A model generated the notes under the pieces. The model was not told the DNA's origin. It did not search any database and saw only the letters and a program-made list of their open reading frames with translations. From Planctomycetia bacterium (GTDB lineage Bacteria; Planctomycetota; Planctomycetia; Pirellulales; UBA7805), in NCBI GenBank assembly GCA_021413585.1, contig JAIOQB010000204.1, forward strand, positions 1-61,687: 61,687 nucleotides of DNA, written 5' to 3'. The translations under genes were made by a program, and so were the position numbers. How positions within the stretch are numbered: position 1 is the first letter of the stretch; each line of letters starts with the position of its first letter. Positions 58,340 through 61,687 of the stretch are shown here, piece after piece.

Positions 58340-58562
58340 GTGTTATGCGCGGTATGTGTCGTTGTCACGACGCTTGTGCTCCTCAAGAACATTCACAATG
58401 TTCTTTGGTCGGGGCACGATCCACTATTGTAATCGATTGCGAAACAATACGAAAACGACCAGATCCTCCGAAATCTTGACGACGGACGCCGCCCGCTCGC
58501 AAGACAACTCGTGGTTGGTAGTGTCTTAATCCTGTGTGCAGCCGCCTCTTTGCGTAGAGATT

Positions 58563-58838
58563 CTAACCTCGACGCAAAGCTACAAGCGAGATAACCGCGA
58601 GCAACACCATGACTAGAAAGCCGCCGCACGTTTGCCCAAATAAATGCTTAGCCAATAGCTTGTCGCCGTCATAAGGGGCGATTTTCCCCACGGTACGCAG
58701 ATTGCGGAGATCGCGCCACGAAATGAACCAAGAGACGGGAAATCCGTTTGAGCGTAGCAAAGCCTTTGCCCGATGCCAGTTGGCGAATACTATCACGACC
58801 GTCCAGAACAGACAAAATGAAAAGATGGCGACAATCAT
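58563..58838 (-). CDS. small two-TM hypothetical protein
   Basis: Two hydrophobic segments; A/T-richer. Confidence 0.55.
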   Translation of the reverse strand: MIVAIFSFCLFWTVVIVFANWHRAKALLRSNGFPVSWFISWRDLRNLRTVGKIAPYDGDKLLAKHLFGQTCGGFLVMVLLAVISLVALRRG

Positions 58839-58878: not shown

Positions 58879-59139
58879 TCATGGGGGTGGTGGATTTGGT
58901 TCTTTGGTCCGGCTTCGATGGCGTCGCTTTGAAGCCGAAACAGTGGCCCAAATCATTGCCCAAGCAAGCAATAAAAGATATGGCAGGACGATGAAGATAG
59001 GAAGCATATCTGGCTTAGCGCCGCCCGTCACTGGCCGGGGACGGAAAGCCGCGTCCAAGCAATTCAATCCGACAAATGTCGCGACCGCCAAAACGATCTT
59101 CAGGCCAGACAGAAACCGGCTTTTTGGTTTTTCTTCCAT
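58879..59139 (-). CDS. small two-TM hypothetical protein
   Basis: Two hydrophobic segments; basic and Pro-rich tail. Confidence 0.55.
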   Translation of the reverse strand: MEEKPKSRFLSGLKIVLAVATFVGLNCLDAAFRPRPVTGGAKPDMLPIFIVLPYLLLLAWAMIWATVSASKRRHRSRTKEPNPPPP

Positions 59140-59383
59140 GGCCCTGATTCTAGCAGGGGGCGGGGGGGCAGATTCTGAACCTTGAATTTGGGCCGAAGGT
59201 CGATATGCTCACGGGACGAGGTGGTGGCTTGGCTGTCCCGCTGGCATCGCCTGCATCGGGCCACCGCAAGCCGCGAACCGCCGTGTGTACGCTTGTGTCC
59301 GAAGATGTTACGCTTGTTGACGTTGTGTACACGCTTTGTCTACAAGTTGTCGGCGCAACTTCTTTGGTGGCCTAACTTTCCGT

Positions 59384-59412
59384 TTGACAAGGCCTCAGTT
59401 TTCAAGTATGTT
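59384..59412 (+). promoter_or_regulatory. sigma70-type promoter
   Basis: TTGACA-N17-TATGTT. Confidence 0.65.
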
Positions 59413-59468
59413 TGGACGATGTTACGGATGTTGCAGCCGAATGGCGTCAGCCGTCCCGAATGGAATTT

Positions 59469-59501
59469 GGGCTGCTCCCTGGAGGGCGGCCCTGTTTTTT
59501 T
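59469..59501 (+). terminator. intrinsic terminator-like hairpin before the DUF3467-like gene
   Basis: GGGCTGCTC/GGGCGGCCC 9-bp stem followed by TGTTTTTTT. Confidence 0.6.
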
Positions 59502-59510
59502 GCGCAGATA

Positions 59511-59807
59511 ATGATGGAAAGCCAGCAACAAAAATATCAGATTCAATTTCCCGTCGATGGTGGACCCGTAACGCTTGTAAATAACGTCATCGGGCAAGCA
59601 GATCCGGTCGAGGGCTTGGTGTATCTATTATTTACACAGTCACCGCCGCCTATTCATTTGGAAGAAGTGTCAGACGTTCATACTATCAAATCCATCCCCG
59701 TGGCGCGGGTCGCATTAACACTTAACAAGGCGAAAAGCGTATTGGCTTTACTCCAAAAGCAGATAGCTGCTATTGAATCGTATGAGGAGGGGGACAGCAA
59801 TGACTAA
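59511..59807 (+). CDS. DUF3467-like small protein
   Basis: VNNVIG...LLFTQ.PPP...VARVALTL.KAKSVL.LL pattern. Confidence 0.65.
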   Translation: MMESQQQKYQIQFPVDGGPVTLVNNVIGQADPVEGLVYLLFTQSPPPIHLEEVSDVHTIKSIPVARVALTLNKAKSVLALLQKQIAAIESYEEGDSND

Positions 59808-60006
59808 AGCCATGCTAGACAGTTCCAGGAGGAGAACGGTAGTTACAAACGTCCTGGGATCGGCAGTCTGCTTTACAGATAGCCAGAACGACGAATATTG
59901 GGGCACGGACAAAGACTGGGAAGAGGTCAATCGGTCAATGCCGCTAGGGCCCCAGATCGCCGCCGTCGCCGATTATATGGAAAGAACAGGACAAGCATCG
60001 GCGTAG
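59800..60006 (+). CDS. 68-aa hypothetical protein (possible antitoxin)
   Basis: GAGGAGG RBS; overlaps the upstream stop; directly precedes the PemK-like gene. Confidence 0.6.
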   Translation: MTKAMLDSSRRRTVVTNVLGSAVCFTDSQNDEYWGTDKDWEEVNRSMPLGPQIAAVADYMERTGQASA

Positions 60007-60012
60007 CGGCTC

Positions 60013-60405
60013 GTGCCAGATATAACACTCCAAATTGGCGCTATAGCGTGGGCTCGGGTTCGCGAGCCCACGATTGAGCGACGGCTGCTTGAAGAACATC
60101 CGACCGTCGTTTTGAGTACGAACGAGGAAATTGCCAACGGCGATAACCTCTGGGTGGCTGTTGTTACGACGACATACAGCATCCCTCTTCCATTCGGGCA
60201 ATTCTATTTGCCCACCATGCCACAGCCGGGCGGTCATCCACAGACTGGGCTTACGCAAGCGTGCGTCGTAAAGGGAACTTGGCTGGACGAAATTGCACAA
60301 GACAGTGTGCAAAGAATCACTGGCCGCGCCCCTATAGCAGTCGTTAAAAAGTTGCGCGATTGGATTCTTAGCAAAAAGCGCGAACAATCCGAAGGCCCAG
60401 AGTGA
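60013..60405 (+). CDS. PemK/MazF-like toxin family protein
   Basis: G.IAW, HPTVVLS, VAVVTTT, GHPQTGL..CVVK..WL..I, G.AP layout. Confidence 0.75.
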   Translation: MPDITLQIGAIAWARVREPTIERRLLEEHPTVVLSTNEEIANGDNLWVAVVTTTYSIPLPFGQFYLPTMPQPGGHPQTGLTQACVVKGTWLDEIAQDSVQRITGRAPIAVVKKLRDWILSKKREQSEGPE

Positions 60406-60441
60406 CATTAACCTGTGGCCGTTCTCCCACGCTAACTGTAT

Positions 60442-60534
60442 GGAGAGCGGCCCGCGCCTTGGACGGCGCAGCGGCCTTATAAACCGCCCCAGGGGACGGC
60501 ATGCGCCGGCTGGGTTCGATTCCCCCTCTCTCCG
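60442..60534 (+). tRNA. non-canonical tRNA-like RNA: 9-bp acceptor / 3-bp T-stem (allo-tRNA type), anticodon UAU, long variable arm, G discriminator, no encoded CCA
   Basis: GGAGAGCGG/CCTCTCTCC; D arm GCGCC-TTGGAC-GGCGC; anticodon arm GCGGC-CTTATAA-ACCGC; variable arm CGGC-ATGC-GCCG; T arm GGG-TTCGATT-CCC. Confidence 0.78.
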
Positions 60535-60535
60535 C

Positions 60536-60712
60536 TTAGCGCTTCTGTGCGCGCCCAGCGGCCCTCAGAAGCGTCTCACGCGCCCAGGTAGCCATTTTCC
60601 CGCTGGCAGCTTTATCCAGCGACTTGGCCTCTTCCGGCGTGAAACGTATTTCCAGACGCTCTGTGTGGCGTTCCGCGGCTTTCTTCGGGGGTCGGCCCCT
60701 CTTGGATTCCAT
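60536..60712 (-). CDS. 58-aa ribbon-helix-helix DNA-binding protein (absent from the ORF track)
   Basis: Hand translation MESKRGRPPKKAAERHTERLEIRFTPEEAKSLDKAASGKMATWARETLLRAAGRAQKR*. Confidence 0.8.
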   Translation of the reverse strand: MESKRGRPPKKAAERHTERLEIRFTPEEAKSLDKAASGKMATWARETLLRAAGRAQKR

Positions 60713-60718
60713 AGCCTA

Positions 60719-60780
60719 AATATACCGGTAAAAAATAAATGGTCAAGCCTATTGACGGCCGATATATTTACCGGTAAAAT
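60719..60780. promoter_or_regulatory. divergent sigma70 promoters with two TACCGGTA operators
   Basis: + strand TTGACG(60752)-N17-TAAAAT; - strand TTGACC-N16-TATATT; boxes at 60723-60730 and TTTACCGGTAAA at 60767-60778. Confidence 0.75.
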
Positions 60781-60908
60781 AATCGCATGACAAAGAAAAA
60801 CCCCGCCGACTGTTGAAGCAGCCGCCGGGGCAAGACAACCAGGCCGAAACCTAGAAGCCTCTCGCAAAAGCATTCTAGCATCGGTCGCAGACTCCGAAAG
60901 CCCGACCG

Positions 60909-61687
60909 ATGATTGCTTGTGCCCACGCTGAATACCGAACCAACGGCAAAGACCGCCACGGCAACACCCGCTATCGCTGCCGGTTCTGTGGCAAGACTTG
61001 GGTGGAAGTCCAGCCCGTCAAGCCGCTGGGGGATATGACGGTCCCCGTGGCCGATGCCAAGCTGGTGTTGCGGCTGCTGACTGAGGGATCGTCAATTCGC
61101 AGCGCCGAGCGGATTACGGGCGTCAACCGCAACACGATTTGCAAGCTGCTGGTTTACTTCGGGGAAGCCTGCCAGACGTTCCTGGACAAGCGGATGCAGG
61201 GCCTCACGCTGACTCACCTGCAATTCGACGAGCAGTGGACTTGGGTAGGCAAGAAAAATAGCCGCGTCCACATTGAAGAGCGCCGCGAGCGGGCCGACGT
61301 GGGGGATATTTATGTTTGGACCTGCATCGACCAAAAGACCAAGCTCATGCCCGCGTTCCTGCTGGGGAAGCGTACCGCCGACAATGCCCGCCGGTTTATG
61401 ATGGATGTAGCCAGCCGGCTGGTAATGCCCAAGCCGCACGCCAGCGACGCGCACCGCTACCAAGCTGGCGGATACACCACGATTACCCAGATCAGCACAG
61501 ACGGCTTTGCGGCCTATCCTGAGGCGGTCGATTTGGCCTTTGGCCCCTACGTGAAATACGGCGTGCTGGTGAAGGATTACAAAAACGCGAACATGATCTA
61601 CACCCCCAGCGAAATGGTGGGCAGCAAGCGCAAGGGGATAGTCGGAATAGAGGGGAATCAGAAGTGGTCGATTTGCACTTCGCACGT
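60909..61687 (+). mobile_element. IS1-family DDE transposase (single ORF), truncated by the window end
   Basis: Hand translation: zinc ribbon C..NGKDRHGNTRYRCRFCGKTW, HTH GSSIRSAERITGVNRNTI, QFDEQW, ISTDGFAAY, ICTSH(V..); no stop before the window edge. Confidence 0.92.

What the first reader, a model, noticed from the sequence alone, without database searches (positions are those of the whole stretch)
59384..61687. Candidate new system: transposon-linked allo-tRNA plus PemK-like toxin module
The toxin operon, tRNA-like gene (36 nt after the toxin stop, same strand), RHH regulator and IS1 transposase are packed with almost no spare DNA. Inferred hypotheses: (a) the RNA is a decoy, antitoxin or substrate for a tRNA-targeting toxin; (b) it is itself a mistranslation toxin; (c) toxin and RNA act together in addiction or abortive infection by targeting AUA decoding, a codon rare in the host core genes here but present in these cargo genes.
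Basis: inference. Interest (0 to 1): 0.85.

Follow-up and report, generated by a model that had tools for sequence, protein, structure and literature searches.

The report
IS1 cargo transposon with built-in tRNA
The toxin genes, the odd tRNA-like gene, the small regulator and the transposase all lie inside one 3.4-kb jumping gene of the IS1 family, in which the tRNA-like gene is a fixed part of the transposon's backbone and the MazF toxin cassette is one of many swappable passenger modules, not the tRNA's dedicated partner.

Summary

- **Toxin.** ORF 60013-60405 is a divergent MazF/PemK toxin, shown by a homologue profile and a fold match. It ends a three-gene cassette.
- **tRNA-like gene.** It starts 36 nt after the toxin stop (60442-60534). 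It is a 9/3 allo-tRNA-like cloverleaf with anticodon UAU, and 22 of 27 pairs show compensatory changes across 59 distinct copies.
- **Regulator and transposase.** An RHH gene converges on the tRNA-like gene, and an IS1-family transposase follows.

These parts are not a stand-alone toxin plus RNA system. They lie inside one 3,436-bp IS1-family transposon with perfect 23-nt inverted repeats and a 6-bp target duplication.

The fixed backbone is tRNA-like, RHH, then transposase. Among metagenome loci found through the RNA alone, 29 of 36 have the transposase and 35 of 43 have the RHH. Only 1 of 50 has this MazF clade. The slot upstream of the tRNA-like gene holds very diverse cargo, often toxin-antitoxin modules.

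This MazF clade does recur in that slot: 6 of its 8 nearest homologues sit there, on different backbones.

Mukai et al. 2017 already described allo-tRNA(UAU) and its link to toxin-antitoxin systems and transposons. The fixed IS1 architecture and the conserved AUA codons in the transposase go beyond that paper. The function of the tRNA-like gene is still unproven.

The parts
58511..58516 (.). Target-site duplication GTGGTT, left copy. The right copy follows the right inverted repeat on contig C327, at 407-412.
   Evidence: The same 6 bases flank both ends. The C340 copy has its own 8-bp duplication, GACAGGCG.
58517..58539 (+). Left terminal inverted repeat (IRL), GGTAGTGTCTTAATCCTGTGTGC
   Evidence: It is a perfect 23-nt reverse complement of the point where three copies of the transposase end stop being alike (C327 start, C424 end, C340). 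It occurs once in the window.
58563..58838 (-). Passenger ORF, 91 aa, putative small membrane protein
   Evidence: No family hit. It lies inside the inverted repeats. Whether it is a real gene is inferred only.
58879..59139 (-). Passenger ORF, 86 aa (MEEKPK...), putative small membrane protein. Its conserved roughly 40-nt upstream element (59113-59166) recurs on at least 14 contigs.
   Evidence: A related ORF sits at the same place in the C340 element.
59384..59500 (+). Promoter-like site (TTGACA, 17 nt, TATGTT) and a terminator-like hairpin with a T run, in front of the cassette
   Evidence: These are consensus scans only, and function was not tested.
59514..59807 (+). Cassette gene 1, 97 aa, distantly DUF3467-like
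   Evidence: No direct Pfam hit. It aligns with gene 1 of the L246 and L248 cassettes. The L248 protein scores 30.3 bits against DUF3467, whose cut-off is 25.
59800..60006 (+). Cassette gene 2, 68 aa, acidic. Putative MazF antitoxin with a conserved C-terminal ..A(D/E)Y..(R/K/E)TGQAS
   Evidence: It is conserved directly upstream of MazF in four cassettes. The antitoxin role is inferred from its position.
60013..60405 (+). MazF/PemK-fold toxin, 130 aa. It has His29 where classical MazF has the catalytic Arg, and Thr52 is kept.
   Evidence: In 66 family members the Arg column splits R 35 to H 31.
60442..60534 (+). 9/3 allo-tRNA-like gene: anticodon loop CUUAUAA (UAU), long variable arm, G discriminator, no encoded CCA, and a C7:U66 mismatch
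   Evidence: The mismatch at pair 7 is shared by 31 of 59 family members.
60536..60712 (-). Ribbon-helix-helix protein, 58 aa, convergent with the tRNA-like gene. Its stop codon begins 2 nt after the discriminator base (one base lies between them).
   Evidence: An RHH gene abuts the tRNA-like gene in 35 of 43 metagenome loci.
60719..60780 (.). Divergent promoter region with two TACCGGTA boxes (60723-60730 and 60769-60776) that overlap the -10 hexamers of the RHH and transposase promoters
   Evidence: The box occurs twice in the window, against 0.12 expected. The C340 copy has a different RHH and different repeated boxes (CTGTAGGAA) at the same places. Operator function is inferred.
60909..61687 (+). 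IS1-family transposase (zinc finger, HTH, DDE). It is cut by the window end and continues on contig C327 to 344 aa, ending 9 nt before the end of the right inverted repeat.
   Evidence: Its only two AUA codons are codons 244 and 247.

Best explanation
**What it is.** The finding covers the right-hand two thirds of a 3,436-bp IS1-family cargo transposon. The element runs from window 58517, past the window end, to C327:406.

**Backbone.** The backbone has three parts, in this order:
- the allo-tRNA(UAU)-like gene;
- a convergent RHH gene;
- the transposase gene.

The RHH protein probably binds the two TACCGGTA boxes in the divergent promoter region. That would repress both its own gene and the transposase gene.

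**Cargo slot.** The segment between the left inverted repeat and the tRNA-like gene is a variable cargo slot. In this copy it holds two small membrane-protein ORFs and a three-gene MazF toxin-antitoxin cassette (a DUF3467-like gene, a putative antitoxin and MazF).

**Why the toxin sits next to the tRNA-like gene.** The cargo slot abuts the backbone tRNA, so whatever fills the slot ends up beside it. The two are not a dedicated pair. The cassette most likely acts as an ordinary type II addiction or defence module that stabilises the element.

**What the tRNA-like gene most likely does (my odds about 0.4).** It serves the transposition module as a private decoder of AUA codons, which are held at fixed positions in this transposase family. 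The main alternative is a processed structural RNA that marks the boundary between cargo and transposition genes.

**Shown versus inferred.**
- Shown: the element's ends and target duplication, the architecture and its conservation, the RNA fold, the MazF fold, and the statistics of association.
- Inferred: RHH operator binding, the antitoxin role of ORF2, and any function of the tRNA-like RNA.
For: **Ends of the element**
- Three copies of the transposase 3' end stop being alike 9 nt after the stop codon.
- The reverse complement of that end occurs as a perfect 23-mer at window 58517.
- Both ends are flanked by GTGGTT.
- The C340 copy is 3,126 bp long, has the same inverted repeats, an 8-bp duplication and different cargo.

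**Same layout elsewhere**
- The same order, with inverted-repeat pairs lying 1.4-2.3 kb upstream of the tRNA-like gene, is found in C43, G175, L044, L046, L047 and L048, and in the acidobacterial locus L099.
- All four transposase loci in this genome carry the tRNA-like gene plus an RHH gene, although the transposases are only 29-41% identical.
- In the RNA-first metagenome sample, the transposase is present in 29 of 36 loci, the RHH in 35 of 43, and this MazF clade in 1 of 50.
- In the transposase-first sample, the 11 closest planctomycete loci all have a UAU tRNA-like gene. Acidobacterial loci L096, L099 and L100 carry 8/4 allo-tRNA(UAU) genes.

**Cargo**
- Cargo is highly diverse and includes HicAB-, RelE/ParE-, PIN- and SocA-like genes. 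No family recurs in more than 3 of 55 loci.

**MazF identity**
-.

**AUA signal in the transposase**
- At two alignment columns, AUA makes up 24 of 28 and 20 of 29 Ile codons, against a background share of about 12%.
- AUA at those columns goes together with a UAU tRNA-like gene upstream (14/2 against 13/51, odds ratio 27, p=1e-6).
- AUA positions align with Ile or Val in homologues, not with Ser.
Against: **Against 'mere cargo' for MazF.** Six of the 8 nearest MazF homologues lie 36-44 nt upstream of such a tRNA-like gene. They do so on transposase backbones as different as 36% identity. A functional tie between this MazF clade and the tRNA-like gene is therefore not excluded.

**Against the AUA-decoder role.**
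- Mukai et al. found six allo-tRNA(UAU) species, converted to amber suppressors, to be inactive in E. coli (PMC5389517).
- Many copies carry a stem mismatch.
- Thirteen transposase loci keep AUA at these columns without a detectable tRNA-like gene.
- This window's own transposase has AUG-GUG at the two hot columns. Its two AUA codons lie 8 and 11 codons downstream.
- The association statistics are not corrected for phylogeny.

**Gaps in the evidence.**
- No expression data exist. The only RNA run from the sample is tiny and shows nothing.
Confidence: 0.8

Rival explanations
1. This is the first reader's hypothesis: MazF and the tRNA-like RNA form a dedicated functional pair. The RNA would be the toxin's decoy, antitoxin or substrate. 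Alternatively, the two would together manipulate AUA decoding for addiction or abortive infection.
For: - The two genes are on the same strand, 36-44 nt apart, in the window, L245, L246/L152 and L248. Gene layouts without DNA suggest the same for P0002 and P0007.
- These MazF proteins are only 39-49% identical, and they sit on different transposase and RHH backbones.
- C43 in the same genome has another PemK toxin 56 nt upstream of its tRNA-like gene.
- A profile of the window toxin and 65 of its homologues matches MazF9 in the PDB.
- MazF-mt9 is known to cut tRNA (my own knowledge).
Against: - The tRNA-like gene occurs with unrelated cargo in 49 of 50 RNA-first loci and in all 80 transposase-first loci.
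- tRNA-like sequences do not cluster by cargo. The window's copy is closest to C38's, which has no MazF.
- The spacer between MazF and the tRNA-like gene is not conserved.
- A protein antitoxin candidate is conserved next to MazF.
- Two of the 8 nearest MazF homologues (L244, L247) lack the tRNA-like gene.
Confidence: 0.12
2. The tRNA-like RNA is a non-decoding structural element of the backbone.
- RNase P and RNase Z would process it, which separates cargo transcripts from the transposition genes.
- Its convergent overlap with the RHH 3' end would give antisense cross-talk between cargo/tRNA transcription and the repressor.
For: - Its position is fixed between convergent cargo and RHH transcription units.
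- The RHH stop codon starts within a few nt of the discriminator base in most loci.
- Where the RHH gene is absent, the tRNA-like gene lies 130-210 nt upstream of the transposase on the same strand, like a leader.
- Amber-converted allo-tRNA(UAU) species were inactive in translation in E. coli (PMC5389517).
- A mismatch at acceptor pair 7 is common.
Against: A simple processing signal would not need several features that are conserved here:
- a near-invariant CUUAUAA anticodon loop;
- the D-loop GG;
- a T loop that changes from UUCGAUU to AUCGUAA in a way that keeps the 54-58 tertiary pair;
- a conserved tRNA-Ser-type acceptor end.

It also does not explain the concentration of AUA codons in the transposase.
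Confidence: 0.25
3. The tRNA-like sequence is a decaying tRNA pseudogene or a chance tRNA-like fold that hitch-hikes next to the IS.
For: - ARAGORN misses it.
- Rfam scores it below the gathering threshold.
- Its single-sequence folding energy is no better than shuffled sequence (z=+1.3).
- It has one acceptor-stem mismatch.
Against: - Covariation is strong: 22 of 27 pairs show compensatory changes, and 0 of 500 shuffles reach the observed values.
- It is conserved at one position across two phyla, next to transposases that are only 29-45% identical.
Confidence: 0.02

Closest known systems
allo-tRNA(UAU) group (Mukai et al., Nucleic Acids Res 2017, PMC5389517; reviewed in PMC7609411)
   Same: - It has a 12-bp acceptor/T branch in a non-7/5 split (9/3 here, 8/4 in the acidobacterial relatives L096 and L099).
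- It has a long variable arm, a UAU anticodon and stem-destabilising mismatches.
- It is found next to toxin-antitoxin genes and a transposon-related ORF, as that paper reports.
   Different: - The paper lists UAU mainly among 8/4 species from Acidobacteria and soil metagenomes. Here it is a 9/3 form in a freshwater planctomycete.
- In the parts of the paper I read, it does not describe the RNA as a position-fixed internal gene of an IS1-family transposon. It does not describe the abutting RHH gene or the conserved AUA codons in the transposase.
IS1-family insertion sequences with a single transposase ORF and passenger genes (ISfinder's ISMhu11-like subgroup; from my own knowledge, no paper found)
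   Same: - The transposase has a zinc finger, an HTH and a DDE domain (NF033558, NF050000).
- The terminal inverted repeats begin GGTAGTG, much like IS1's GGTGATG.
- Target duplications are short (6-8 bp).
- Passenger genes lie inside the inverted repeats.
   Different: - The match to the NCBIfam IS1 model is below its cut-off (66.8 against 100 bits).
- There is no InsA/InsB frameshift arrangement.
- The element carries a conserved RNA gene and an RHH regulator as backbone.
MazEF/PemIK type II toxin-antitoxin systems (closest solved structures: M. tuberculosis MazF-mt1, -mt3, -mt6 and -mt9)
   Same: - The toxin has the MazF fold (TM-scores 0.72-0.85).
- The profile matches MazF.
- A small acidic gene sits directly upstream, with a 6-nt gap.
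   Different: - The cassette has three genes, with an extra and variable first gene (DUF3467-like, DUF6941 or other).
- His replaces the catalytic Arg, as in about half of this clade.
- The putative antitoxin has no recognisable MazE/AbrB or RHH domain.
tRNA genes carried by phages and plasmids to supply codons that are rare in the host
   Same: A mobile element carries a tRNA-type gene whose anticodon matches a codon that is rarer in the host (about 2 per 1000) than in the element's own genes (9-11 per 1000).
   Different: - The body is not that of a tRNA-Ile.
- Charging is unknown.
- The excess of AUA in the cargo genes is what their G+C content predicts.
- The codon signal is confined to fixed positions in the transposase.

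Membership tests
allo-tRNA (Mukai 2017) | A 12-bp acceptor plus T branch split 8/4 or 9/3 instead of 7/5 | tested here: met
   A 9-bp acceptor (pair 7 is C:U) and a 3-bp T stem. Both helices are supported by covariation.
allo-tRNA (Mukai 2017) | Long variable arm and tRNA-Ser-like identity marks (G73, G1-C72, G2-C71, A3-U70) | tested here: met
   A 5-bp variable-arm helix in which all 5 pairs covary. GGA.../...UCC-G is near-invariant. That these are SerRS identity elements rests on my own knowledge.
allo-tRNA (Mukai 2017) | Function as a tRNA (maturation, aminoacylation, decoding) | not testable with these tools
   No usable RNA data. Published amber-converted UAU species were inactive in E. 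coli (PMC5389517).
IS1 family transposon | DDE transposase of the IS1 type with an N-terminal zinc finger | tested here: inconclusive
   NF033558 at 2.4e-18 but 66.8 bits against a cut-off of 100. The IS1/IS1595 zinc-finger domain scores exactly at its cut-off (28 bits). Pfam DDE_Tnp_IS1 is only weak. IS1 is the best-matching family, but this is a distant member.
IS1 family transposon | Terminal inverted repeats and a target-site duplication flanking the whole unit | tested here: met
   A perfect 23-nt inverted-repeat pair and a 6-bp duplication here, and an 8-bp duplication at C340. Inverted-repeat pairs are also found in six other elements.
MazF/PemK toxin (PF02452) | Sequence membership in PF02452 | tested here: inconclusive
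   The window protein itself gives no hit, but 54 of its 66 aligned homologues do. The profile hits MazF structures at 1.6e-9.
MazF/PemK toxin (PF02452) | SH3-like MazF/CcdB barrel fold | tested here: met
   AlphaFold2 pLDDT 95.6. The top 50 Foldseek hits are all MazF/PemK/YdcE.
MazF/PemK toxin (PF02452) | Catalytic Arg (the RP motif) and Ser/Thr | tested here: not met
   The Arg column holds His29 (EEHPTVVLS), and Thr52 is kept. His occurs in 31 of 66 members of this clade. Whether His supports catalysis is unknown.
Type II toxin-antitoxin module | A cognate protein antitoxin that neutralises the toxin | not testable with these tools
   ORF2 is conserved directly upstream of MazF in four cassettes. 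Its antitoxin role is inferred from position.
Ribbon-helix-helix (CopG/NikA-like) regulator | RHH domain | tested here: inconclusive
   The window protein scores NikA-like at E=0.022, below the cut-off. Its paralogue on C455 passes the cut-off (29.2 against 27 bits), and others give weak NikA/TacA/DUF6290 hits.

The most novel reading that the evidence does not exclude
A widespread lineage of IS1-family transposons in Planctomycetota and Acidobacteriota carries its own tRNA. That tRNA would be charged through its UAU anticodon and would read rare AUA codons kept at fixed positions in the element's own transposase. Transposase synthesis would then be licensed by the element rather than by the host's scarce AUA decoder.

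In the sub-lineage seen here, the recurrent MazF cassette could tie into the same circuit. For example, it could cut the host AUA decoder or the element's own tRNA under stress.
Probability: 0.25. Interest if true: 0.85.

Novelty: new variant of a known kind. Interest (0 to 1): 0.55.

Why it matters
**An open question from the literature.** Allo-tRNA(UAU) is the most abundant class of allo-tRNA in soil and sediment data, yet its function has stayed open since 2017. The only clue was a loose link to toxin-antitoxin systems and transposons.

**What this work adds.**
- The RNA is a position-fixed backbone gene of a cargo-carrying IS1-family transposon.
- The toxin-antitoxin link comes from a variable cargo slot next to it.
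- The transposase keeps the matching rare codon at fixed sites.

**Why that helps.** Together these turn a vague association into a testable model of a transposon with a private tRNA.

**Practical points.**
- Annotators should expect tRNA finders to miss this gene.
- They should expect this kind of element to be split across contigs.
- The element is a compact natural vehicle that moves toxin-antitoxin and defence-type cassettes.

Tried and rejected
- **Direct family searches on the cassette proteins.** Pfam, NCBIfam and PADLOC gave nothing. The word-seeded homologue search for MazF also found nothing. Only the exhaustive search worked.
- **Structure prediction.** Single-sequence AlphaFold2 failed (pLDDT 36). 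The run with an alignment succeeded.
- **The tRNA-like gene as the transposon's terminus or insertion target.** I rejected this because the left inverted repeat lies 1.4-2.3 kb upstream, so the RNA gene is internal.
- **AUA read as Ser (recoding).** I rejected this for the transposase, because AUA positions align with Ile or Val.
- **AUA enrichment in the cargo as a special signal.** I rejected this because it matches host ORFs of similar G+C.
- **RHH operator boxes upstream of the tRNA-like gene.** There are none. TACCGGTA occurs only in the RHH-transposase intergenic region.
- **Expression evidence.** The one RNA run from the sample has no reads on the region.
- **tRNA-like genes in the 9 transposase loci with AUA-AUA but no R2 hit.** Rfam found none.
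- **Literature.** Searches for IS1-family passenger tRNAs and for 'ISMhu11' found nothing relevant.


Full report
**1. What is at the coordinates**

The window is contig C180 of a 5.85-Mb, 523-contig assembly from a freshwater metagenome. From 59384 to the window end the sequence holds the following features.

- A promoter-like site and a terminator-like hairpin.
- Three tightly spaced ORFs on the + strand, at 59514-59807, 59800-60006 and 60013-60405.
- A tRNA-like sequence at 60442-60534.
- A 58-aa ORF on the - strand at 60536-60712.
- A divergent promoter region.
- A transposase gene from 60909 that runs off the window.

**2. The toxin**

The 130-aa product of 60013-60405 gave no hit in Pfam, NCBIfam or PADLOC. 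The word-seeded homologue search also found nothing.

The exhaustive search found 126 homologues of similar length. Of the 66 I aligned, 54 match PF02452 PemK_toxin. A profile built from them hits M. tuberculosis MazF6 and MazF9 at 1.6e-9 and 4.3e-7.

With that alignment AlphaFold2 gives pLDDT 95.6. The 50 best Foldseek matches listed for the PDB are all MazF/PemK/YdcE proteins, with TM-scores up to 0.87. The protein is therefore a MazF-fold toxin.

The classical catalytic Arg is His here. His and Arg alternate 31 to 35 in this clade, and the Ser/Thr is kept.

The 68-aa ORF directly upstream is conserved in front of related MazF genes and has an invariant C-terminal TGQAS. By position it is the likely antitoxin.

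The first ORF has no Pfam hit of its own. It aligns with the first gene of two related cassettes, and one of those passes the DUF3467 cut-off. In other cassettes the first gene is DUF6941 or something else.

**3. The tRNA-like gene**

ARAGORN does not call it. Rfam's tRNA-Sec model aligns it end to end at 30.4 bits, which is below threshold. Read as a cloverleaf it has these features:

- a 9-bp acceptor stem with a C:U at pair 7;
- a 5-bp D stem with a GG loop;
- a 5-bp anticodon stem with loop CUUAUAA;
- a 5-bp variable-arm helix;
- a 3-bp T stem with loop UUCGAUU;
- discriminator G, and no encoded CCA.

A covariance model built from three copies in this genome, then from six copies, found relatives in the following places:

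- other planctomycete genomes;
- 14 of 80 loci fetched through the transposase;
- 55 of 80 metagenome loci fetched with a loose pattern of anticodon loop plus T arm.

On 59 distinct metagenome copies, 92.6% of cells pair, against 44-62% when partners are slid. Twenty-two of 27 pairs show compensatory changes, and no shuffle out of 500 reaches any observed measure. That alignment was fitted to the model, which favours the structure, but the margin is large.

Pair 7 is unpaired in 31 of 59 copies, so the window's C:U mismatch is a family trait and not decay.

The T loop exists as UUCGAUU or AUCGUAA. That change keeps a 54-58 pair. This is my reading of the sequences.

This matches the allo-tRNA class of Mukai et al. 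2017 (PMC5389517).

**4. It is all one transposon**

BLAST of the region against the assembly showed that the transposase part recurs on C340 at 92% identity. The last 141 bases of the window overlap the ends of C327 and C424.

The three transposase 3' ends stay alike until 9 nt past the stop codon and then diverge. The reverse complement of that end, GGTAGTGTCTTAATCCTGTGTGC, occurs once in the window, as a perfect match at 58517-58539.

GTGGTT flanks the left repeat in the window and the right repeat on C327. The element is therefore 3,436 bp, from window 58517 to C327:406. It encloses two small membrane-protein ORFs, the MazF cassette, the tRNA-like gene, the RHH gene and the transposase gene.

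The C340 copy is 3,126 bp. It has the same repeats, its own 8-bp duplication (GACAGGCG), different cargo (a winged-helix-like protein), a more divergent UAU tRNA-like gene, a different RHH, and a frameshifted transposase.

**5. What is backbone and what is cargo**

*In this genome.* Every IS1-like transposase locus (the window, C340, C38 and C43) has a UAU tRNA-like gene and a convergent RHH gene just upstream. The transposases are only 29-41% identical. A fifth locus, C455, has an 8/4 tRNA-like gene plus an RHH gene but no transposase.

*Inverted repeats elsewhere.* Inverted-repeat pairs that enclose cargo, tRNA-like gene, RHH where present, and transposase were found in C43, G175, L044, L046, L047 and L048, and in the acidobacterial L099. 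The left repeat always lies 1.4-2.3 kb upstream of the tRNA-like gene.

*Metagenome loci chosen through the RNA alone.*

| Flank required | Loci with that flank | Feature looked for | Loci with the feature |
|---|---|---|---|
| at least 700 nt downstream | 36 | IS1-like transposase, same strand | 29 |
| at least 350 nt downstream | 43 | RHH ORF whose stop codon starts within a few nt of the discriminator | 35 |
| at least 500 nt upstream | 50 | this MazF clade | 1 |

The RHH count is an underestimate, because my profile missed a second RHH class seen in L152.

*Loci fetched through the transposase.* None of the 80 carries this MazF.

*Cargo diversity.* Upstream cargo is extremely diverse, and no family recurs in more than 3 of 55 loci. 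It includes HicAB-, RelE/ParE-, PIN- and SocA-like genes. [quoted passage not shown]

**6.

I looked up seven of the nearest MazF homologues (39-46% identical to the window's) in their contigs; with the window's own locus that makes eight.

- L245, L246 (the same locus as L152) and L248 have a tRNA-like gene 40-42 nt after MazF.
- P0002 and P0007 have the same gene layout: a gap of 80-133 nt followed by a small minus-strand gene. In P0007 that gene is NikA-like and an IS1 transposase follows. No DNA was available for these two.
- L244 and L247 do not have a tRNA-like gene.

The backbones differ. L248's transposase is 36% identical to the window's but about 80% identical to those of L046 and L048, which carry other cargo. 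So this cassette has moved among backbones, or was captured repeatedly, and is found mostly in this slot.

Against co-adaptation: the tRNA-like sequences do not group by cargo, and the spacers are unrelated. I read this MazF cassette as a member of a cassette pool that circulates in this transposon family. I give a direct MazF-RNA interaction about 0.12.

**7. What the tRNA-like gene might do**

The AUA excess in the element's genes is about 9 per 1000 codons, against about 2 in long host ORFs. Host ORFs of similar G+C show much the same value (7.7 per 1000 at 50-54% G+C). It is therefore not a special signal.

Earlier notes of this scan suggested conserved AUA codons in the transposase. I tested this on 84 aligned transposases.

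- AUA codons pile up in three columns. At the two adjacent columns of the YSP..II motif, AUA makes up 24 of 28 and 20 of 29 Ile codons, against a background share of about 12%.
- AUA there goes together with a detectable UAU tRNA-like gene upstream (14 and 2 against 13 and 51; odds ratio 27, p=1e-6).
- AUA positions align with Ile or Val in homologues, not with Ser.
- A locus whose tRNA-like gene has a CUA anticodon uses AUC at these columns.

Caveats:

- The counts are not corrected for phylogeny.
- Thirteen loci keep AUA without a detectable tRNA-like gene. Rfam finds none in the nine of these I scanned.
- This window's own transposase has AUG-GUG at the two hot columns. Its only two AUA codons lie at codons 244 and 247, just downstream.
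- Six amber-converted allo-tRNA(UAU) species were inactive in E. coli (PMC5389517). That assay removed the anticodon and required Ser insertion, so it does not exclude anticodon-dependent charging. This point is my inference.

I put a private AUA-decoder role at about 0.4, a processed structural or antisense role at about 0.25, and leave the rest open.

**8. Regulation**

The RHH and transposase genes are divergent. Two TACCGGTA boxes, the only two in the window (0.12 expected), overlap the -10 hexamers of two good promoter-like sites. The C340 copy has a different RHH and different repeated boxes at the same positions. That is what an operator-repressor pair would show. Binding itself is inferred.

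**9. Comparison with what is known, and verdict**

The RNA belongs to the published allo-tRNA(UAU) class. The transposase is a distant IS1-family member. The toxin is a MazF-fold protein in a three-gene cassette.

In the papers I could search, I did not find the following:

- the fixed architecture of cargo slot, allo-tRNA, RHH and IS1 transposase;
- its spread over at least two phyla;
- the codon-level AUA signal in the transposase.

Other agents of this scan have seen the same kind of element in other genomes. Those notes are not independent evidence, but I reproduced the main points here.

The finding as worded, a new toxin-plus-tRNA system, is not supported as such. The underlying object is real, is a variant of known kinds, and leaves an interesting open question.

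Noticed in passing
G000 contig C231, about 16.6-23.0 kb (outside the window): An array of 33 tRNA genes in about 6.5 kb. It includes a canonical tRNA-Ile(UAU), two short tRNA-Met(CAU) genes and several duplicates (ARAGORN). It looks like a phage-type or mobile tRNA array.
   Followed up: no
window 59113-59166: A repeat of about 40 nt recurs on at least 14 contigs of the assembly. On the minus strand it reads ...CTGCTAGAATCAGGGCC followed by the ATG of the small 'MEEKPK' membrane ORF. It may be a shared promoter and leaderless start for a family of small membrane proteins.
   Followed up: partly
G000 contig C455, 8577-8669 (locus L041, 5578-5670): An 8/4 tRNA-like gene with loop CCUUUACAU (possibly a UUA, ochre-type anticodon). 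A convergent NikA-like RHH gene follows it. There is no transposase, and a RhuM-like gene lies downstream.
   Followed up: partly
G000 contig C448, 4700-4774: Another irregular tRNA-like sequence, with a 7-bp D hairpin and a loop CUUACAC. A large ORF follows it that looks like an integrase. ARAGORN does not call it.
   Followed up: no
L048 3454-3650; L071, L102 and L069 upstream of the transposase: - L048 carries two tRNA-like genes in tandem, one with loop CUUUAAA and then a UAU type.
- Related transposons carry other long-arm tRNA-like genes 140-250 nt upstream of the transposase. L071 (Acidobacteriota) has a GUA loop and L102 (Acidobacteriota) has a CUA (amber) loop.
- L069 (a Planctomycetia genome) has a CUGUCAA loop, about 650-740 nt upstream.
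   Followed up: partly
G000 contig C340, about 11,020 (transposase codon 243): The C340 copy of the transposase, 97.5% identical at the protein level, has a 1-nt deletion just before the two AUA codons. This creates a stop codon, so that copy is probably inactive.
   Followed up: partly
window end 61547-61687, with contigs C327 and C424: The last 141 bases overlap two other contig ends exactly. Read depth over the transposase is about twice that of the cargo. There is therefore a further near-identical transposase copy whose left part was not located. The C180-C327 join rests on the matching target duplication.
   Followed up: partly
G326:C37:4487-4582 (locus L027): A genuine selenocysteine tRNA (UCA) in another genome of the phylum. 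The allo-tRNA model picked it up at low score.
   Followed up: no
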